From IMG/VR virus record IMGVR_UViG_3300029080_000025, positions 1-6,492 of that record: a stretch of DNA of 6,492 nt; one strand, written 5' to 3'. Within the stretch, counting starts at the first letter, position 1, and the number at the start of each line of letters is the position of its first letter. The stretch is from a virus (taxonomy: Duplodnaviria > Heunggongvirae > Uroviricota > Caudoviricetes). The position numbers and the translations under genes were made by a program. Shown here in pieces: positions 908 to 6,492 of this stretch. Under the pieces are notes generated by a model. That model saw only the letters and a program-made list of their open reading frames with translations. It was not told the origin of the DNA and made no database searches.

Positions 908-1437
908 TTATTTAATTATTCCGCATGCCAGTCTTGCGCCCCCACCCCCCAGAGGAGCAGGTGAATCGGANNNNNNNNNNNNTTATCCCCTCCGGCATGA
1001 ATCATGATCGCCCGTTCTTTTATCTGGCTTATTTTTTTTATTTTTGGACTCAGAACCGGGTTTTCTGCATTTCCTTCTGAGTTGACATAGAGTGCTGGTA
1101 GATCACCCAGATGGCCCTCCGGATTGTACGGCCCAAGATGTTTATTTGTTTGTTCAGGATCATAATGCCCACCGGCAGCAAGAGCTGGCACTTTTTTTCC
1201 ATTAATCAGACCGGGATCACAACTGGCATTTTCATGGATATGAAAGCCATGTAACCCTGGTGGTAGTTCTTTCAGATGAGGAGTGAACAGCAATCCGTAG
1301 CTGGTTTCTGAAATAGTTATTTCCCCTATATTTTTCCCTACTCCTTCTGAGGAAACGAGATTTACAGGGATCGTCATTGTATCAGCCATTACGGCTCCAC
1401 TAAGTAGCGCAGTTACAGCAAGTATTTTTTTTATCAT
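908..1437 (-). CDS. sodC: Periplasmic copper/zinc superoxide dismutase (SodC family), prophage cargo; reading frame interrupted by an N-run at 971-982
   Basis: Reverse-strand ORF starting at ATG 1435-1437. It encodes a signal-peptide-like N-terminus (MIKKILAVTALLSGAVMA) and Cu/Zn-SOD hallmark motifs (GFHIHENASC, PALAAGGHYDP, GHLGDLP, MIHAGGD). After the N-run the ORF-track frame is wrong. The adjacent frame reads SDSPAPLGGGGARLACGIIK and stops at TAA (rc of 908-910), the expected SodC C-terminus including the disulfide cysteine. I therefore place the true 3' end at 908 rather than 916. Confidence 0.85.
971..982. other. Run of 12 ambiguous bases (assembly gap or masked bases) inside sodC
   Basis: Literal n characters at 971-982. 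The flanking codons show the real missing length must be 1 mod 3 for sodC to be intact, whereas 12 is 0 mod 3, so the N-run length is probably arbitrary. Confidence 0.95.
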
Positions 1438-1570: not shown

Positions 1571-4500
1571 ATGGGTAAAGGTGGCACTAAGGGGCATACC
1601 CCGCGCGAAGCGAAGGACAACCTGAAATCATCCCAGCTGCTGAGCGTGATAGACGCCATCAGTGAAGGGCCGATTGAAGGTCCGGTGGACGGATTAAAAA
1701 GTGTGCTGCTGAACAGTACGCCGGTGCTGGACAGTGAGGGGAATACCAATATCTCCGGTGTCACGGTGGTGTTCCGGGCAGGTGAGCAGGAGCAGACACC
1801 GCCGGAGGGATTTGAATCCTCCGGTTCAGAAACCGTTATCGGTGCAGAATTAAAATATGACAATCCGCTCACCCGGACCATCACGTCGGCAAACATCGAC
1901 CGTCTGCGCCTGACCTTCGGTGTGCAGGCACTGGTGGAAACCACTTCAAAGGGGGACCGGAATCCGTCGGAAGTTCGCCTGCTGGTTCAGATACAACGTA
2001 ATGGTGGCTGGGTGACGGAAAAAGACATCACCATTAAGGGCAAAACCACCTCACAGTATCTGGCCTCGGTGGTGGTGGATAATCTGCCGCCGCGACCGTT
2101 CAGTATCAGGATGCGCAGGATGACGCCGGACAGCACCACAGACCAGTTGCAGAACAAAACGCTCTGGTCGTCATACACCGAAATTATCGATGTGAAACAG
2201 TGCTACCCGAACACGGCACTGGTCGGCGTGCAGGTGGACTCTGAGCAGTTCGGCAGCCAGCAGGTGAGCCGTAATTATCATCTGCGCGGGCGCATTCTGC
2301 AGGTGCCGTCGAACTATAACCCGCAAACACGGCAATACAGCGGTATCTGGGACGGAACGTTCAGGCCAGCGTACAGCGACAACATGGCCTGGTGTCTGTG
2401 GGACATGCTGACCCACCCGCGCTACGGCATGGGGAAACGTCTTGGTGCGGCGGATGTTGATAAATGGGCGTTGTATGCCATCGGTCGGTACTGCGACCAG
2501 TCGGTACCGGATGGCTCTGGCGGCACGGAGCCGCGCATCACCTGTAATGCGTACCTGACCACACAGCGCAAGGCGTGGGATGTGCTCAGTGATTTCTGCT
2601 CGGCGATGCGCTGTATGCCGGTATGGAACGGGCAGACGCTGACGTTCGTGCAGGACCGGCCATCGGATAAGGTGTGGACCTATAACCGCAGTAATGTGGT
2701 GATGCCGGATGATGGCGCGCCGTTCCGCTACAGCTTCAGCGCCCTGAAGGACCGCCATAATGCCGTTGAGGTGAACTGGATTGACCCGGACAACGGCTGG
2801 GAGACGGCAACAGAGCTTGTGGAGGACACGCAGGCCATTGCCCGTTACGGTCGTAACGTCACGAAGATGGATGCCTTTGGCTGTACCAGCCGGGGGCAGG
2901 CACACCGAGCCGGGCTGTGGCTGATTAAAACAGAACTGCTGGAAACGCAGACCGTGGATTTCAGCGTGGGTGCAGAAGGGCTTCGCCATGTGCCGGGAGA
3001 CGTCATTGAAATCTGCGATGATGACTATGCGGGTATCAGCATCGGTGGTCGCGTGCTGGCGGTGAACAGCCAGACCCGGACGCTGACGCTCGACCGTGAA
3101 ATCACGCTGCCAGCCTCCGGCACCACACTGATAAGCCTGGTCGACGGGACGGGGAGTCCGGTCAGCGTGGTGGTCCAGTCCGTCACCGACGGCGTGCAGG
3201 TGAAAGTGAGCCGGGTTCCTGACGGCGTTGCCGGATACAGCGTGTGGGGGCTGAAGCTGCCGACGCTGCGCCAGCGCCTGTTCCGCTGCGTGAGTATCCG
3301 TGAGAACGACGACGGCACGTACGCTGTCACTGCCGTGCAGCATGTGCCTGAAAAAGAGGCTATCGTGGATAACGGGGCGCACTTTGACGGCGACCAGAGC
3401 GGCACGGTGAATGGTGTCACGCCGCCAGCAGTGCAGCACCTGACCGCAGAAGTCTCCGCAGACAGCGGGGAGTATCAGGTGCTGGCGCGCTGGGACACGC
3501 CGAAGGTGGTGAAGGGGGTGAGCTTTATGCTTCGCCTGACCGTGGCAGCGGACGACGGCAGTGAGCGGTTGGTCAGCACGGCCCGGACGACGGAAACCAC
3601 ATACCGCTTCACGCAACTGGCGCCAGGGAACTACAGGCTGACAGTCCGGGCGGTAAATGCGTGGGGACAGCAGGGCGACCCGGCGTCGGTATCGTTCAGG
3701 ATTGCCGCACCGGCAGCGCCGTCACAGATTGAGCTGACGCCGGGCTATTTTCAGATAACCGCCACGCCGCATCTTGCCGTTTATGACCCGACGGTACAGT
3801 TTGAGTTCTGGTTTTCGGAAAAGCGGATTACCGATATCAGGCAGGTTGAAACCACAGCCCGCTATCTTGGCACGGGGATGTACTGGATAGCCGCCAGTAT
3901 CAATATCAAACCGGGCCATGATTATTACTTTTATATCCGCAGCGTGAACACCGTTGGCAAATCGGCATTCGTGGAGGCTGTCGGTCAGGCGAGCGATGAT
4001 GCGGAAGGTTACCTGGATTTTTTCAAAGGCCAGATAACCGAATCCCATCTCGGCAAGGAGCTGCTGGAAAAAGTCGAGCTGACGGAGGATAACGCCAGCA
4101 AACTGGAGGAGTTTTCGAAAGAGTGGCAGGACGCCAACGATAAGTGGAATGCCATGTGGGGCGTCAAAATTGAGCAGACCAAAGACGGCAAACATTATGT
4201 CGCGGGTATTGGCCTCAGCATGGAGGACACGGAAGAAGGCAAGCTGAGCCAGTTTCTGGTTGCCGCTAACCGTATCGCGTTTATTGACCCGGCAAACGGG
4301 AATGAAACGCCGATGTTTGTGGCGCAGGGCAATCAGATATTTATGAACGACGTGTTCCTGAAGCGTCTGACGGCCCCGACCATTACCAGTGGTGGAAATC
4401 CACCGGCATTTTCCCTGACACCGGACGGGCGGCTGACGGCGAAAAACGCTGATATCAGCGGTAACGTGAATGCGAACTCCGGGACGCTCAACAATGTCAC

Positions 4501-4984
4501 GATAAGTGAGAACTGTACGATTAAGGGCATGCTGGAGGCGACCCAGGTCAGAGGGGATTTCGTTAAAGCTGTATCAAAAGCCTTCCCGAAAAAAGTCGGT
4601 ACGTGGGGTAACACGGAAACGCCAGACGGGACGGTTACAGTCACCATCAGCGATGATCATAACTTTGACCGTCAGATTATTATCCCGCCCATTATCTTTA
4701 ACGGTATAGCGTATACCGATCCGGGAAGTGGTAATAACCCGGGAGGTACAAGGTACACGGGTTATGGATTTGAAGTTCGCAAAAACGGCGTATTAATCGC
4801 ATCCAGAGAAACTAAAGGGGCCATTCCCGGTAGTTACAGTGCGGTTATTGATATGCCGAGTGGGCGAGGTAGCGTCACTCTGGAGTTTAAGATTTACCAG
4901 AAAGGCAATCAGGGGGCAGGCAATATCACCGACTGTACGGTGATTGTGACCAAAAAAGCGGCTTCCGGCATCAGTATCCGTTGA
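1571..4984 (+). CDS. J: Phage host specificity protein J (central tail fibre / tail tip protein)
   Basis: 1137-aa ORF. The N-terminal and central regions ([54 protein letters not shown]...; ...[39 protein letters not shown]...) closely match my recollection of lambda gpJ (1132 aa), including the fibronectin-III-like middle region. The position downstream of K and I is as in lambda. Confidence 0.95.
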
Positions 4985-5005
4985 AATATTTATAACCCTA
5001 ATAAC

Positions 5006-5031
5006 GGGCGCCAGAAATGGCGCCTTTTTTA
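5006..5031 (+). terminator. Rho-independent terminator downstream of J (tJ-like)
   Basis: GC stem ggcgcc (5007-5012) / ggcgcc (5019-5024) with loop agaaat, followed by tttttt (5025-5030). It lies 22 nt after the J stop codon. Confidence 0.6.
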
Positions 5032-5045
5032 TTTGTGGAGTGAGT

Positions 5046-6098
5046 ATGGCAGTACAGATTTCAGGTGTACTGAAAGATGGTGCAGGTAAGCCGATACAAA
5101 ACTGCACCATTCAGCTAAAGGCCAGACGTAACAGCACCACGGTGGTGGTGAACACAGTGGCCTCAGAAAACCCGGATGAAGCCGGGCGTTACACAATGGA
5201 CGTTGAGTACGGTCAGTACAGCGTCATTCTGTTGGTGGAGGGATTTCCGCCGTCACATGCCGGGACCATCACCGTGTATGAAGATTCTCAGCCGGGTACG
5301 CTGAATGATTTTCTCGGTGCCATGACGGAGGAGGATGCCCGGCCGGAGGCACTGCGCCGTTTTGAACAGATGGTGGAAGAGGCAGCGCGTCACGCTGAGG
5401 AGGCGAAGAAGAATGCCGGAGAGGCAGAGACGTCAGCGAGGAATGCGGGTATATCAGTCGGCCAGGCGGAAAAGAGTGCAGTAAATGCTGACACTTCAGC
5501 AGGGGAGGCATCGGAGTCAGCCCGGCAGGCGGCAGAAAGTGCAGCCTCAGCAAAGCAGTCAGAGGATGCGTCCTCGTCCTCGGCTTCTGCGGCCGCTCAA
5601 AAAGCCAGTGAGTCATCACAAAGTGCAGCAGAAGCTGAATTGTCAAGAAAGACGGCAGAAAGTGCAGCCGGTAATGCATCCAGGGATGCAACGACCGCAG
5701 CAGAAAAAGCCCGGGAGTCAGCAGAAAGCGCACAGTCAGCGGAACAAAGCAGGATAGCGGCGGAAGAGGCCGTAAACCGAATCCCCACCGTGGTGGGACC
5801 TCCCGGGCCAAAGGGGGAACAGGGGCCCGCTGGCCCTCAGGGGCCGAAGGGAGACCCGGGCGAGACACAAATCCGTTTTCGTCTGGGGCCGATGAGCATT
5901 ATTGAGACAAACAGCTATGGCTGGTTCCCGGATACAGATGGTGCGCTCATCACCGGACTGACCTTTCTTGACCCCAAAGATGCCACACAGGTTCAGGGGG
6001 TGTTTCAGCATTTGCAGGTCAGATTTGGTGACGGGCCGTGGCAGGATGTTAAGGGGCTGGATGAAGTGGGCAGTGATACAGGCAGAACAGGAGAATGA
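5046..6098 (+). CDS. stf: Side tail fibre protein (lambda Stf-like N-terminus, Ala/Ser/Glu-rich shaft, collagen-like Gly-X-Y segment, short distinct C-terminal domain)
   Basis: ORF ending at TGA 6096-6098. I prefer ATG 5046 (GGAG at 5037-5040, 5-nt spacing) over the in-frame GTG at 5040 because MAVQISGVLKDGAGKPIQNCTIQLKARRNSTTVVVNTVASENPDEAGRY... then matches the recalled lambda Stf N-terminus (MAVKISGVLKDG...). It is much shorter (350 aa) than lambda Stf (774 aa). Confidence 0.85.
   Translation: MAVQISGVLKDGAGKPIQNCTIQLKARRNSTTVVVNTVASENPDEAGRYTMDVEYGQYSVILLVEGFPPSHAGTITVYEDSQPGTLNDFLGAMTEEDARPEALRRFEQMVEEAARHAEEAKKNAGEAETSARNAGISVGQAEKSAVNADTSAGEASESARQAAESAASAKQSEDASSSSASAAAQKASESSQSAAEAELSRKTAESAAGNASRDATTAAEKARESAESAQSAEQSRIAAEEAVNRIPTVVGPPGPKGEQGPAGPQGPKGDPGETQIRFRLGPMSIIETNSYGWFPDTDGALITGLTFLDPKDATQVQGVFQHLQVRFGDGPWQDVKGLDEVGSDTGRTGE
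5370..5790 (+). repeat. Low-complexity Ala/Ser/Glu-rich coding repeats within stf (imperfect tandem AESA-type units)
   Basis: Recurring nucleotide motifs gcagaaagtgcag / gcagaaagcgcac / gcggaaaagagtgcag encode repeated AESAA-like peptide units (EAARHAEEAKKNAGEAETSARNAG...SESARQAAESAASAKQSEDASSSSASAAAQKASESSQSAAEAELSRKTAESAAGNAS...). Boundaries are approximate. Confidence 0.6.
5796..5864 (+). repeat. Collagen-like Gly-X-Y triplet repeat within stf
   Basis: The in-frame codons read GPP GPK GEQ GPA GPQ GPK GDP GE, i.e. seven consecutive G-X-Y triplets plus a trailing Gly-Glu, on a GC-rich stretch (gggccaaagggggaacaggggcccgctggccctcaggggccgaagggagacccgggc). Confidence 0.8.
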
Positions 6099-6099
6099 C

Positions 6100-6369
6100 A
6101 TGAACATACTAAAAAAACTTATGCAGCGTCTGTGCGGTTGCGGAAAGCATGATGGCCGTGAACACGGGCAGTCACTTACAGCACAACTGCGACTGGGGCC
6201 GGCAGACATCCTGGAGTCAGATGAGAATGGTATTATCCCGGAGCAGGCCAGGGTAATCACGCAGGTGGTGATACTGGATGCGGATAAAAAGCAGATACAG
6301 TGCGTGGTAAGACCGCTGCAAATTCTGCGTGCTGACGGGAAGTGGGAAAATATTGGCGGGATGAAGTAA
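6100..6369 (+). CDS. Hypothetical 89-aa protein, unknown function, immediately downstream of and closely coupled to stf
   Basis: ATG at 6100 with AGGAG at 6089-6093 (6-nt spacing), ending at TAA 6367-6369. Translation: MNILKKLMQRLCGCGKHDGREHGQSLTAQLRLGPADILESDENGIIPEQARVITQVVILDADKKQIQCVVRPLQILRADGKWENIGGMK. The ORF track extends this frame back to 5968, but that part overlaps stf and has no better start signal. I recognise no family. Confidence 0.55.
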   Translation: MNILKKLMQRLCGCGKHDGREHGQSLTAQLRLGPADILESDENGIIPEQARVITQVVILDADKKQIQCVVRPLQILRADGKWENIGGMK

Positions 6370-6383
6370 CCCGACAGCTTCAC

Positions 6384-6409
6384 AAAACCGGAGTCCGGCT
6401 CCGGTTTTT
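6384..6409 (+). terminator. Rho-independent terminator downstream of the small ORF
   Basis: Stem aaaaccggag (6384-6393) / ctccggtttt (6399-6408) with loop tccgg; the T-run is ttttt at 6405-6409. It lies 15 nt after the stop codon. Confidence 0.6.
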
Positions 6410-6492
6410 GTGTTGCAATGTCCGGGGGATATTTGTTAAGTAGATGACAGAGGAGCTAATTTAACAGGGAGATAAATTAATGCCGATAAATC

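What the first reader, a model, noticed from the sequence alone, without database searches (positions are those of the whole stretch)
6085..6412. Unassigned 89-aa ORF tightly coupled to the stf stop, in the cargo position and ended by a strong terminator
The ATG at 6100 begins one base after the stf TGA (6096-6098), with a good AGGAG Shine-Dalgarno inside the end of stf. It is therefore probably co-translated with the fibre. The product has no signal peptide and no transmembrane segment that I can see, a Cys-Gly-Cys-Gly motif near the N-terminus (LCGCGKHDGREHG) and another Cys at QCVV. The position directly downstream of fibre genes is where lambdoid prophages carry fibre chaperones or accessory cargo (virulence, superinfection-exclusion or defence/anti-defence genes). 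I cannot assign a family from sequence alone, so this is the least-explained coding element in the window.
Basis: partly seen in the sequence, partly recalled or inferred. Interest (0 to 1): 0.5.

Follow-up and report, generated by a model that had tools for sequence, protein, structure and literature searches.

The report
Free-standing copy of tail-fibre tip
The 89-codon gene is real, but it is not unassigned cargo: it is a known small gene that always follows this type of prophage tail-fibre gene and encodes a separate copy of the fibre's own end knob, and what it does is still not known.

Summary
ATG 6100 lies one base after the fibre stop (6096-6098). AGGAG (6089-6093) sits 6 nt upstream. 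The ORF encodes 89 aa with no hydrophobic segment, and a strong hairpin with a T run follows it.

Residues 28-89 match Pfam PF06820 (Phage_fiber_C, E 5e-35), and the whole protein matches PHROG 576. The preceding fibre ends in the same domain (35% identity to the ORF). The ORF is the orthologue of 933W L0122, Sp5 ORF68 and phi24B gp59. PGAP already names it, and this exact sequence is already deposited from Escherichia albertii.

It travels with the fibre in both long- and short-tailed Stx phages. The downstream T3SS-effector cargo varies, so cargo starts after the terminator.

The gene is under purifying selection: dN/dS is 0.07 in the knob and 0.36 in the N-terminal arm. Its knob is better conserved than the fibre's own knob. 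Published work shows that Sp5 does not need it on K-12, and that two of its peptides occur at trace level in purified phi24B virions.

My best reading, at modest confidence, is a separately translated and dispensable fibre-associated accessory protein. A frameshift fusion, a recombination reservoir and lysogen cargo are each less likely. The family is already known, so interest is low to moderate.

The parts
5040..6098 (+). Side tail-fibre gene (352 aa, EPclA type). Domains in order: PF08400 N-terminal domain, Ala/Ser-rich coiled coil, short collagen repeat, PF06820 knob, and an 11-residue acidic tail.
   Evidence: Residues 3-96 match the solved 'Tail fiber protein' chain 9e7m_Ta. The architecture and trimeric state of this fibre type are described in PMC3368898.
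5871..6062 (+). The fibre's own C-terminal knob (PfC, PF06820, fibre residues 278-341). The small ORF is a paralogue of this domain.
   Evidence: Pfam E 1.2e-34. It is 35% identical to ORF residues 29-88, BLASTP E 1e-10. At the DNA level the two copies are 53% identical, and the longest shared exact run is 9 nt.
6089..6093 (+). Shine-Dalgarno AGGAG, 6 nt upstream of the ATG, inside the last codons of the fibre gene.
   Evidence: It is identical in 13 of 13 relatives. The divergent locus L014 has AGGAGG with a 6-nt spacer.
6096..6098 (+). Fibre stop codon TGA, one base before the ORF's ATG. This arrangement allows termination and re-initiation.
   Evidence: The same 1-nt gap occurs in TL-2011c, VT1-Sakai, BP-4795, E2348/69 and other loci.
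6100..6369 (+). The 89-aa ORF, stop codon included. It is the orthologue of 933W L0122, Sp5 ORF68 and phi24B gp59, and PGAP calls it 'phage tail fiber C-terminal domain-containing protein'.
6100..6183 (+). N-terminal arm, residues 1-28. It comprises a short amphipathic helix (residues 3-11; hydrophobic positions 3, 4, 7 and 11 are conserved) followed by a variable, probably disordered linker that carries the polymorphic Cys/His motif.
   Evidence: AF2 predicts helix 3-11 and gives pLDDT below 50 for residues 15-25. The hydrophobic moment is 0.67. dN/dS is 0.36. Variants are listed. The L014 relative keeps the same hydrophobic pattern.
6184..6366 (+). PfC knob domain of the small protein, residues 29-89. 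It is a small beta-domain.
6381..6415 (+). Intrinsic terminator that closes the fibre cassette and the late operon. Stem arms 6381-6394 and 6398-6412; the GC core CCGGAG / CTCCGG (6388-6404) is followed by TTTTTGTGTT.
   Evidence: -28.3 kcal/mol, z = -5.6. A comparable hairpin with a T run follows the small ORF in L014.

Best explanation
The ORF is the second and last gene of a two-gene side-tail-fibre cassette shared by the lambdoid prophages of attaching-effacing Escherichia, both the long-tailed and the short-tailed Stx-type phages. It encodes a free-standing paralogue of the fibre's distal knob (PfC, PF06820). Two fold searches place this knob nearest the Mu tail fibres. In front of the knob is a 28-residue arm made of a short amphipathic helix and a flexible linker.

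Proposed mechanism, step by step:
1. The gene is transcribed only as the tail end of the late operon. No promoter-like site was found, and a terminator follows it directly. [shown in part]
2. It is translated on its own. Ribosomes initiate or re-initiate at AGGAG-N6-ATG, one base after the fibre stop, so its synthesis is coupled to fibre synthesis. [arrangement shown; coupling inferred]
3. The product stays in the cytoplasm. It probably forms a trimer, as the fibre's PfC does, because the fold-defining residues are shared. [inferred]
4. It associates through its arm or knob with the fibre end or the virion, as a low-copy accessory such as a tip cap, an adaptor or a second adhesin. This accessory is dispensable on laboratory K-12 and may matter on natural hosts. 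[inferred; weakest step]

It is not moron cargo.

I hold the identity and the cassette membership at about 0.95. I hold the 'fibre-associated accessory subunit' mechanism at about 0.35. The single confidence figure given for this explanation reflects the mechanism.
For: Identity.
- PF06820 matches at E 5e-35, and PHROG 576 matches over 1-89 of 89.
- The ORF is 92-98% identical to genes in 296 phage records, including VT1-Sakai H0003, whose record notes similarity to 933W L0122.

Linkage to the fibre, not to the cargo.
- In complete E. coli genomes the ORF is found in 698 genomes and the fibre-PfC DNA in 697.
- The start is always 1 nt after the fibre stop.
- Identical ORF copies in one genome have different downstream genes.
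- A different fibre type in L014 carries a 53%-identical small ORF that overlaps the fibre by 14 nt.

Independent expression.
- The SD and ATG are invariant and are retained in L014.
- Two peptides specific to phi24B gp59 were found by mass spectrometry. The hypothetical fusion entry carries one PSM more than gp61 in gel slice EA1829, where the 204-aa gp54 peaks. That requires at least one gp59-specific PSM in that slice.

Selection.
- dN/dS is 0.07 in the knob and 0.36 in the arm.

Old, subfunctionalised paralogue.
- ORF knobs of the window and L014 are 64% identical, the fibre knobs are 41% identical, and cross-type comparisons give 30-36%.

Fibre-domain fold.
- The top Foldseek PDB hit is Mu gp49 (5yvq, probability 0.97).
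- The best BFVD hits are mostly tail fibres: five of the top nine are named as such, all with probability 0.98 or higher.
- hhalign places PfC on the last 57 residues of Mu S', with shared RLG, G.V.TG, RP.Q and (D/N)G.W motifs.

Knobs can sit in series.
- A collagen protein from the representative library carries four tandem PfC-like repeats.

Dispensability.
- Sp5 ORF68 is listed among the non-essential late genes (PMC5155283).
Against: - No physical interaction with the fibre or the virion has been shown.
- The phi24B signal is only 6 PSMs out of 71,304. That is the level of proteins the authors treated as contaminants, and they do not discuss gp59 in the text.
- Recombinant fibre shows a single terminal knob and trimerises alone (PMC3368898), so no partner is needed for folding.
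- No natural fusion of a fibre-type knob followed by an ORF-type knob was found that would argue for stacking.
- The AF2 model is a monomer built from a shallow 16-sequence alignment.
- ORF copies (7220) outnumber fibre-knob copies (6160), so about a thousand copies persist without an intact fibre next to them.
Confidence: 0.38

Rival explanations
1. The protein is an assembly helper that works by domain mimicry, a functional analogue of the Tfa proteins in the same gene slot. It would transiently template or register the three fibre C-termini so that the knob and the collagen helix nucleate correctly, and it would then mostly be released.
For: - It occupies the slot directly after the fibre gene and is translationally coupled to it.
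- No Tfa-family gene was seen in the cassettes examined.
- Its trace level in virions fits a factor that is not retained.
- Mu fibres, whose distal part is the nearest fold match, need a chaperone that binds their tip (5yvq is described as 'Complex of Mu phage tail fiber and its chaperone').
- It is better conserved than the fibre knob.
Against: - The full fibre, and the isolated PfC as a thioredoxin fusion, trimerise in E. coli without it, and Col-PfC refolds within minutes after heat denaturation (PMC3368898).
- The Sp5 orthologue is listed among the non-essential late genes, so the mutant still forms plaques and lysogens (PMC5155283).
- It has no sequence similarity to Caudo_TAP/Tfa families.
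Confidence: 0.22
2. The ORF is a silent or standby reservoir cassette, as Mondal et al. proposed. On this view it exists mainly to be recombined into the fibre gene to change the fibre tip.
For: - The idea was proposed for Sp5 ORF68 (PMC5155283).
- Rare natural chimeras exist. P0063/L007 joins the collagen repeat directly to the ORF-type knob at a GPA microhomology. P0121 joins the ORF arm to a fibre-type knob.
Against: - The two knob-coding segments are 53% identical at the DNA level and share at most 9 nt exactly. This is too little for homologous recombination.
- Within-locus paralogues are not homogenised. The two types form separate lineages that predate the window/L014 split.
- The gene keeps its own invariant SD and ATG and a conserved N-terminal helix, and it is translated. 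A mere DNA reservoir would not need any of these.
- The chimeras are very rare: the clusters hold 4 member sequences and 1 protein respectively, against clusters of 318 to 1362 members each for intact forms. Other fusions, to Lom, J and cII fragments, look like random deletions in decaying prophages.
Confidence: 0.1
3. A programmed +1 frameshift or transcriptional slippage fuses the fibre to the ORF and produces a minor fibre variant with a second knob. This is the idea in the GenBank note for AU6Stx1 atfT and in the 'Fusion_6159_FS1/FS2' entries of the phi24B proteomics database.
For: - The ORF is in the +1 frame in both the E. coli-type cassette and the L014 cassette.
- The +1 frame is open for 46 codons upstream of the ATG in all 13 E. 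coli-type loci.
- Some phages have a T7 run (GGTTTTTTTCAG) inside the fibre knob.
- The two detected gp59 peptides cannot by themselves distinguish the free protein from a fusion.
Against: - The T7 run is present in 4 of 13 loci and a T6 run in 1 more. It is absent from this window, which has GGGGGTGTTTCAG.
- A shift at that site would truncate the fibre knob in mid-domain and insert about 31 out-of-frame residues.
- The open upstream frame is not significant. It appears in 26% of synonymous recodings, and the 13 loci are nearly identical there.
- In L014 a TAA closes the ORF frame two codons before the ATG (one open codon), and in C. rodentium only 7 codons are open.
- At the stop codon, GAA-TGA-C offers no re-pairing for tRNA-Glu [established decoding rules].
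- Mondal et al. found no frameshift signal.
- No junction peptide or N-terminal peptide of the small protein was found in the stored part of the phi24B table.
- The fusion entry has one PSM more than gp61 in a slice well below the main gp61 band (EA1811), which requires at least one gp59-specific PSM there.
Confidence: 0.06
4. The ORF is lysogenic-conversion cargo acting on the host cell or on other phages (exclusion, defence, anti-defence or virulence).
For: - It lies at the end of the tail operon, where morons such as cor, lom and T3SS effector genes sit, and it is next to nleG-type genes.
- About a thousand copies persist without an adjacent intact fibre knob.
Against: - It is a homologue of a virion fibre domain.
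- It has no signal peptide, lipobox or membrane segment.
- It has no PADLOC match.
- There is no promoter-like site between 4900 and 6492, and it lies upstream of the terminator that separates the late operon from the cargo.
- It co-varies with the fibre, not with the cargo.
- Its orphan copies can be explained by deletions that spare the selected effector region.
Confidence: 0.05
5. The ORF is a functionless leftover of a tandem duplication of the fibre's 3' end.
For: - It is dispensable in Sp5.
- There are many truncated and frameshifted copies in the databases.
- The copy in C. rodentium is decayed to 78 aa, with an internal deletion, beside a remnant fibre.
Against: - dN/dS is 0.07 in the knob, with 14 codons carrying synonymous variants against 6 carrying amino-acid variants.
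- The reading frame, SD, start codon and terminator are conserved in a relative that is only 53% identical.
- The protein is detected by mass spectrometry.
Confidence: 0.04

Closest known systems
933W L0122 / Sp5 ORF68 / phi24B gp59 / VT1-Sakai H0003 / AU6Stx1 'atfT' (the small gene after the Stx-phage tail-fibre gene)
   Same: It is 92-98% identical, has the same 89-aa length, starts 1 nt after the fibre stop in the same way, and is followed by a terminator. The window ORF is simply another copy. The exact sequence is deposited from E. albertii.
   Different: Nothing of substance differs. Compared with its relatives, the window copy has K81 instead of T or R and belongs to the 'GQS' arm variant. 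The upstream fibre here is a short 352-aa form without lom in front of it.
PfC domain of EHEC prophage collagen-like fibre proteins (EPclA/EPclB; Pfam PF06820)
   Same: The Pfam family is the same, and both the ORF and the fibre score about 120 bits. Fold-defining residues are shared: R31, G33, I37, G44, I53, T54, L59, D60, V69, L73, Q74, D79, G80 and W82. In the fibre this domain is an autonomous trimerisation knob (PMC3368898).
   Different: Here the domain is not the C-terminus of a fibre. It is a separate polypeptide with its own 28-residue N-terminal arm in place of the collagen stalk. It is 35% identical to the neighbouring fibre knob, has a distinct and conserved SD(E/D)NG(I/V)IPEQ loop, and forms a separate and better conserved lineage.
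Tail-fibre assembly proteins Tfa (lambda Tfa, Mu U/U', P2 G; Pfam Caudo_TAP)
   Same: The gene position is the same: directly after the fibre gene, as the last cistron of the tail operon. Mu Tfa binds the tip of a fibre that is the nearest fold match to PfC.
   Different: There is no sequence similarity. This protein is half the size of a Tfa. It is homologous to the fibre tip itself rather than to a chaperone. It is not required for trimerisation or infectivity in the published tests (PMC3368898, PMC5155283).
Mu tail fibres S (gp49; PDB 5yvq) and S' (gp52; PDB 8ju3)
   Different: The similarity is weak (hhalign E 0.22; profile search of PDB sequences negative). In Mu the matched segment is part of the fibre chain, and alternative tips are supplied by an invertible G segment, not by a free-standing paralogue.
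Cor / Llp-type exclusion lipoproteins encoded beside receptor-binding genes
   Same: They are small genes next to the host-recognition genes at the end of the tail region.
   Different: Those proteins are exported lipoproteins. This protein has no signal sequence or lipobox and is a fibre-domain homologue.

Membership tests
Pfam PF06820 Phage_fiber_C / PHROG 576 | Profile match above the curated threshold | tested here: met
   The score is 120.1 bits against a cutoff of 25, E 5e-35, covering residues 28-89 and profile positions 1-64 of 64. PHROG 576 matches at E 2.2e-59 over 1-89 of 89.
Pfam PF06820 Phage_fiber_C / PHROG 576 | The domain forms the C-terminus of a tail-fibre polypeptide (the family's namesake context) | tested here: not met
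   The ORF has its own SD and ATG and starts after the fibre's stop codon. The fibre carries its own copy at residues 278-341. PHROG 576 is nevertheless an 89-position model of exactly this stand-alone form.
Pfam PF06820 Phage_fiber_C / PHROG 576 | The domain trimerises autonomously (shown for the fibre's PfC in PMC3368898) | not testable with these tools
   Only a monomer model could be built. The residues shared with the fibre knob are conserved.
933W L0122 / Sp5 ORF68 / phi24B gp59 orthologous group | A protein of about 89 aa, more than 90% identical, encoded 1 nt after the stop of a PfC-terminated fibre gene | tested here: met
   The phi24B coordinates are gp61 38078-40024 and the extended small ORF ending at 40295.
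933W L0122 / Sp5 ORF68 / phi24B gp59 orthologous group | Dispensable for plaque formation and lysogeny on K-12 | not testable with these tools
   This rests on the literature only. ORF68 is listed among the non-essential late genes of Sp5 (PMC5155283).
Tail-fibre assembly chaperones (Tfa; Pfam Caudo_TAP and NCBIfam equivalents) | Sequence membership in the Tfa families | tested here: not met
   PF06820 is the only Pfam family at E up to 1. NCBIfam gives no hit, and the other PHROG hits are fibre families.
Tail-fibre assembly chaperones (Tfa; Pfam Caudo_TAP and NCBIfam equivalents) | The gene lies immediately downstream of the fibre gene | tested here: met
Tail-fibre assembly chaperones (Tfa; Pfam Caudo_TAP and NCBIfam equivalents) | Needed for fibre trimerisation and for infectivity | not tested
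   Published data argue against it. rEPclA and PfC trimerise alone (PMC3368898), and Sp5 lacking ORF68 remains infectious (PMC5155283).
Programmed-frameshift C-terminal extensions (as in T7 10A/10B and lambda G/GT) | A conserved slippery site, with the overlapping frame open at the shift site in all members | tested here: not met
   The T7 run is present in only 4 of 13 loci and is absent here. The L014 ORF frame is closed by a TAA two codons before the ATG. The open frame is expected by chance in 26% of recodings.
Exclusion lipoproteins (Cor, Llp) and other exported morons | An N-terminal signal peptide with a lipobox, or a membrane segment | tested here: not met
   The N-terminus is MNILKKLMQRLCGCGK, which has four basic residues and no hydrophobic core. 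The hydropathy maximum is 1.26 and lies in the beta-domain. Cys14 is replaced by Tyr or His in close relatives.
Known anti-phage defence proteins (PADLOC-DB) | A profile match | tested here: not met
   No family matched at E up to 1.
Mu tail-fibre fold (gp49, gp52) | Significant structural or profile similarity | tested here: inconclusive

The most novel reading that the evidence does not exclude
The small protein is a new kind of fibre partner that arose by duplication of the fibre's own tip. On this reading it is a free trimeric knob that docks on the fibre end through its N-terminal arm and acts as a cap, adaptor or second adhesin. It would fill the slot that Tfa proteins occupy in lambda and Mu. 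This would explain why it is more conserved than the fibre tip it accompanies, and why it moves with that tip between long-tailed and short-tailed phages. Such a partner could affect how Stx and effector-carrying phages reach O-antigen-covered natural hosts.
Probability: 0.3. Interest if true: 0.5.

Novelty: already known. Interest (0 to 1): 0.25.

Why it matters
For this window the result is mainly a correction. The 'least-explained coding element' belongs to a catalogued family, and it marks the true end of the tail module. The boundary between phage structural genes and T3SS-effector cargo lies at the terminator, 6381-6415.

More broadly, the gene is very abundant: 7220 copies in 698 of 5426 complete E. 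coli genomes, with a median of 11 per genome. It sits in the Stx and effector-carrying phages that spread virulence genes, and its function has never been determined.

The analysis here adds four points that turn a vague annotation into a few cheap, testable alternatives:
- The knob is under strong purifying selection.
- It forms an old lineage separate from the fibre knob and better conserved than it.
- The frameshift and reservoir ideas in the literature and in GenBank notes are poorly supported.
- The fold points to the Mu fibres.

Tried and rejected
- Sequence search of the PDB with the protein and with a 16-sequence profile found nothing meaningful.
- NCBIfam and PADLOC gave no hit.
- The AFDB Foldseek library was not available.
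- The genome-contig scan returned only an E. albertii contig and a 725-nt 'Xanthomonas pisi' contig that looks like contamination. Diverse loci were therefore collected from E. coli genomes, phage records and exact-protein look-ups instead.
- The full representative search (1.84 billion proteins) gave only 86 hits, mostly fragments. The family is narrow, and no deep alignment or covariation analysis was possible. Hits in SprB-repeat and CarboxypepD_reg-repeat proteins are repeat or low-information matches and were set aside.
- I considered a metal-binding CxC...H...H site in the arm and rejected it, because the Cys and His positions vary among close relatives.
- I considered a lipobox at LCGC and rejected it, because there is no hydrophobic signal core and Cys14 is replaceable.
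- I tried to count genomes with the collagen-to-ORF-knob junction of L007. The tool joins the two normal, separated pieces into one place, so the count is uninformative.
- I looked for junction peptides and N-terminal peptides of the small protein in the phi24B proteome table and found none. The stored file is truncated, so their absence is weak evidence.
- The 2025 paper on lambda_2B8 fibres cited by the phi24B preprint is not in the library.
- The second structure-prediction job was not used, because only single chains from the window can be submitted and the open question concerns a hetero-complex.
Full report
**What is in the sequence**

The window is the distal tail region of a lambdoid prophage. 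It carries K (partial), I, a minus-strand sodC, J (1571-4984), a 352-aa side tail-fibre gene (5040-6098) and then the 89-codon ORF (6100-6369).

- The fibre ends with TGA at 6096-6098, and the ORF's ATG is at 6100.
- AGGAG lies at 6089-6093, 6 nt upstream of the ATG.
- The ORF frame is +1 relative to the fibre.
- The product has no hydrophobic segment. The highest 15-residue Kyte-Doolittle mean is 1.26, and it lies inside the beta-domain.
- The ORF is followed by a hairpin of -28.3 kcal/mol (z = -5.6; none of 200 shuffles folds as well) and then TTTTTGTGTT.
- No promoter-like site lies between 4900 and 6492.

**Family assignment**

The protein is not unassigned.
- Residues 28-89 match Pfam PF06820, 'Putative prophage tail fibre C-terminus' (E 5e-35, 120 bits against a cutoff of 25, full profile length).
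- The whole protein matches PHROG 576 end to end (E 2e-59).
- The fibre just upstream ends in the same domain at residues 278-341 (E 1.2e-34). The two copies are 35% identical (BLASTP E 1e-10).

The ORF is therefore a free-standing paralogue of the fibre's own C-terminal knob, preceded by 28 extra residues.

PGAP annotates the gene as 'phage tail fiber C-terminal domain-containing protein'. The exact 89-aa sequence is deposited from Escherichia albertii, for example as BAT38910.1. No complete E. coli genome covers more than 88% of the window, so the window probably comes from E. albertii.

**What the fibre is**

The upstream gene is the EPclA type of collagen-like prophage fibre studied by Ghosh et al. 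(PMC3368898). Its parts, in order, are an N-terminal PF08400 domain, a trimeric coiled coil, a collagen triple helix and a C-terminal PfC knob. In that work:
- the full recombinant protein and the isolated PfC (as a thioredoxin fusion and after tag removal) were trimers;
- the Col-PfC fragment refolded rapidly after heating.

That paper does not discuss the small downstream gene.

**Distribution and synteny**

- The ORF's DNA is found in 698 of 5426 complete E. coli genomes, in 7220 places, with a median of 11 per genome.
- The DNA of the fibre's knob is found in 697 genomes and 6160 places.
- tblastn finds the ORF in 296 phage records. These include long-tailed phages (VT1-Sakai, BP-4795) and short-tailed Stx phages (TL-2011c, Min27, AU6Stx1).
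- In every locus inspected the ORF starts one base after the stop of a PfC-terminated fibre gene.
- What follows the ORF varies. It can be NleG, NleC, NleB, HECT-type or SopA-like ligases, IS elements, or the prophage end.
- Two identical copies of the ORF in one E. albertii genome have different downstream genes but the same fibre upstream.

The ORF therefore belongs to the fibre cassette, and the cargo starts after its terminator.

The VT1-Sakai record describes its copy (H0003) as similar to 933W L0122.

Outside Escherichia the family is very narrow.
- A search of 1.84 billion representative proteins gave only 86 hits, mostly fragments.
- Citrobacter rodentium has a decayed 78-aa copy next to a fibre remnant.

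**A divergent cassette**

One distant relative was informative (L014, GCA_008387015.1).
- A fibre of a different kind ends in a PfC domain.
- It is followed by a 79-aa small ORF that is 53% identical to the window ORF over the whole protein (64% in the knob).
- This ORF has AGGAGG and a 6-nt spacer in front of it, overlaps the fibre's last codons by 14 nt, is again in the +1 frame, and is again followed by a hairpin with a T run.

Comparing the four knobs gives 64% identity between the two small-ORF knobs, 41% between the two fibre knobs, and 30-36% across types. The duplication is therefore older than the split between these cassettes. The two paralogues have stayed distinct, and the free-standing knob is the better conserved of the two.

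**Selection**

Thirteen distinct DNA copies give dN/dS = 0.17 overall (Nei-Gojobori, summed over pairs). The value is 0.07 for the knob (residues 29-89) and 0.36 for the N-terminal arm (residues 1-28).

CGCG, CGYG, CGHG and CSCG all occur, so the motif is not a strictly conserved metal site.

What is conserved in the arm, even in L014, is the hydrophobic pattern at positions 3, 4, 7 and 11 of a short amphipathic helix.

The last 60 nt of the fibre gene, the SD and the ATG are identical in all 13 copies.

**Structure**

An AlphaFold2 model built from a shallow 16-sequence alignment has mean pLDDT 73.6. It shows a low-confidence helix at residues 3-11 and a low-confidence stretch at residues 12-28 (pLDDT below 50 for 15-25). 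A six-stranded beta-domain follows, with block pLDDT of 84-91 over residues 31-80.

The only meaningful matches to solved structures are the two Mu tail fibres:
- Foldseek ranks 5yvq first (Mu gp49 fibre with its chaperone), with probability 0.97.
- hhalign places PfC on the last 57 residues of Mu S', with shared RLG, G.V.TG, RP.Q and (D/N)G.W motifs, although at E 0.22.
- Among predicted viral structures the best hits are mostly tail fibres.

I take this as moderate evidence that PfC is a tail-fibre domain related to the C-terminal part of the Mu fibres. It is not proof.

**What experiments by others say**

Mondal et al. [quoted passage not shown]
- The fibre gene ORF67 was essential.
- They found no frameshift signal and suggested that it might be a reservoir for fibre variation.

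A 2026 preprint on phi24B (10.64898/2026.04.10.717836) combines cryo-EM and proteomics.
- It models 141 of the 645 residues of the lateral fibre gp61 and could not resolve the C-terminal knob in three dimensions.
- It argues that this knob is probably not the BamA binder.
- The main text never mentions the small gene. Its proteome table, however, contains two peptides that can only come from it, VITQVVILDADKK and ADGTWENIGGMK, with 3 PSMs each.
- These are assigned to hypothetical 'Fusion_6159_FS1/FS2' entries and to 'gp59_start', under the label 'Spike or just gp59?'.
- In gel slice EA1829, where the 204-aa gp54 peaks, the fusion entry has one PSM more than gp61. That requires at least one gp59-specific PSM in a slice well below the main gp61 band (EA1811).
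- No junction peptide or N-terminal peptide was found in the stored, truncated table.

The protein is therefore made. Its virion association is not established, because 6 PSMs out of 71,304 is at the level of proteins the authors treated as contaminants.

**The frameshift idea**

The GenBank record of AU6Stx1 names the gene atfT and notes a predicted slippery sequence and pseudoknot for a +1 frameshift. I tested this idea in four ways.
- The candidate T7 run (GGTTTTTTTCAG) lies inside the fibre knob. It is present in 4 of 13 loci, a T6 run occurs in one more, and both are absent in this window, which has GGGGGTGTTTCAG. A shift there would truncate the fibre knob and add about 31 out-of-frame residues.
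- The +1 frame is open for 46 codons upstream of the ATG in the E. coli-type loci. Those loci are almost identical in this stretch, and 26% of synonymous recodings of the fibre's last 45 codons leave the frame open. In L014 only one codon is open before an in-frame TAA, and in C. rodentium only seven.
- At the stop codon, GAA-TGA-C gives tRNA-Glu nothing to re-pair with in the +1 frame [established decoding rules].
- The internal AGGAG overlaps the last sense codon, so it is placed for initiation at the ATG rather than for an RF2-type shift.

Separate initiation is by far the simplest reading.

**The reservoir idea**

The two knob-coding segments are 53% identical in DNA and share at most 9 nt exactly. 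Homologous exchange within a locus is therefore unlikely, and the paralogues are not homogenised.

Rare chimeras do exist:
- P0063/L007 joins the collagen repeat to the ORF-type knob at a GPA microhomology. The contig starts inside the collagen repeat, so a full-length fibre cannot be confirmed.
- P0121 joins the ORF arm to a fibre-type knob.

Similar in-frame fusions to fragments of Lom, J and cII show that random deletions in decaying prophages also produce such products. A DNA reservoir would not need an invariant SD and ATG, a conserved N-terminal helix, or translation.

**Most likely mechanism**

Shown here:
- the family and the paralogy;
- membership of the fibre cassette;
- the coupling arrangement;
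- purifying selection;
- the absence of export signals;
- the terminator.

Shown by others:
- the fibre knob trimerises on its own;
- the gene is dispensable on K-12;
- the protein is produced.

Inferred:
- the small protein forms a trimer like its paralogue;
- it works with the fibre.

Among the possibilities, I put most weight (about 0.35) on a low-copy, dispensable fibre-associated accessory: a cap, an adaptor or a second adhesin that docks through the N-terminal arm, which replaces the collagen stalk. Four observations point this way:
- the knob surface, for example the SD(E/D)NG(I/V)IPEQ loop, is conserved across cassettes whose fibre knobs have diverged;
- the gene moves with the knob between unrelated tail types;
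- PfC-like domains occur in series in another collagen-containing protein (P0144);
- its peptides appear in purified virions.

A Tfa-like assembly helper that acts by mimicry is the main rival (about 0.22). The fibre folds without the protein, which weakens that reading. The reservoir (0.10), frameshift fusion (0.06), lysogen cargo (0.05) and dead duplicate (0.04) readings are less likely.

**Comparison with known systems, and novelty**

The ORF is a member of PF06820/PHROG 576 and of the L0122/ORF68/gp59 orthologous group. It occupies the position of a Tfa chaperone but is not a Tfa. It is not an exported Cor/Llp-type protein, and it matches no known defence family.

Because the family, the annotation, the exact sequence and a knockout phenotype are already public, I rate the finding as already known. 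Interest is low to moderate. The residual interest is the unanswered question of why these medically important phages keep a selected, free-standing copy of their fibre knob. That question can be settled with the experiments listed under next steps.

Noticed in passing
window 916-1437 (-), N run 971-982: A Cu,Zn superoxide dismutase gene (sodC) sits on the opposite strand between tail genes I and J, and it is interrupted in the window by a 12-base run of N. The same I-sodC-J layout occurs in E. albertii loci L023 and L025. The closest E. coli relatives inspected lack sodC at this position.
   Followed up: partly
window 4985-5039: There is no lom gene between J and the fibre gene here, only a terminator-like hairpin with a T run at 5006-5025. 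Most relatives carry a 600-bp Ail/Lom gene at this spot.
   Followed up: no
window 6481-6492 (continues beyond the window; L001 10703-10780): An ATG with GGGAG 9 nt upstream opens an unannotated 25-codon ORF (MPINLTSYLGLQGAKVVPAVVFSKI in L001). It lies between the cassette terminator and the first nleG gene.
   Followed up: no
window 6371-6447 (equivalent to L002 7494-7570, L017 and L019 2772-2848): In relatives PGAP marks a 77-nt 'tail assembly protein' pseudogene (frameshifted, missing its N-terminus) directly after the small ORF and over the terminator hairpin. It looks like an annotation artefact seeded by read-through ORF calls such as P0003 and P0007.
   Followed up: partly
window about 5998-6009 (fibre codon about 322) and the same site in 12 relatives: This site in the fibre knob is polymorphic. 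The residue is F, L, V or M, and the F allele creates a T6 or T7 run. That run is the 'slippery sequence' behind the frameshift annotations in some phage records.
   Followed up: yes
L004 (NZ_JPLE01000138.1, 725 nt): A short contig filed under Xanthomonas pisi DSM 18956 carries a 92%-identical copy of the small ORF and the fibre end. This is almost certainly Escherichia contamination of that assembly.
   Followed up: no
E. coli genomes counts: Copies of the small ORF (7220) outnumber copies of the fibre knob (6160) in the same set of about 698 genomes. About a thousand orphan copies therefore persist next to effector genes after the fibre has been deleted. In-frame fusions to Lom, J and cII fragments are among them.
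   Followed up: partly
P0144 (565 aa, from the representative library): A collagen-containing protein carries four tandem PfC-like repeats (WEF.L.DG...KTVVVL.ADE...G.MGIL.VR.ADGTW.EIPA.KG) ahead of its collagen region. PfC-like units can therefore be strung in series.
   Followed up: partly
L016 3122-3703 (E. coli E2348/69): In this prophage a conventional 'tail fiber assembly protein' gene lies after the small ORF and an IS remnant, at the prophage end next to potB. It may be a leftover of an earlier lambda-type stf-tfa module.
   Followed up: no
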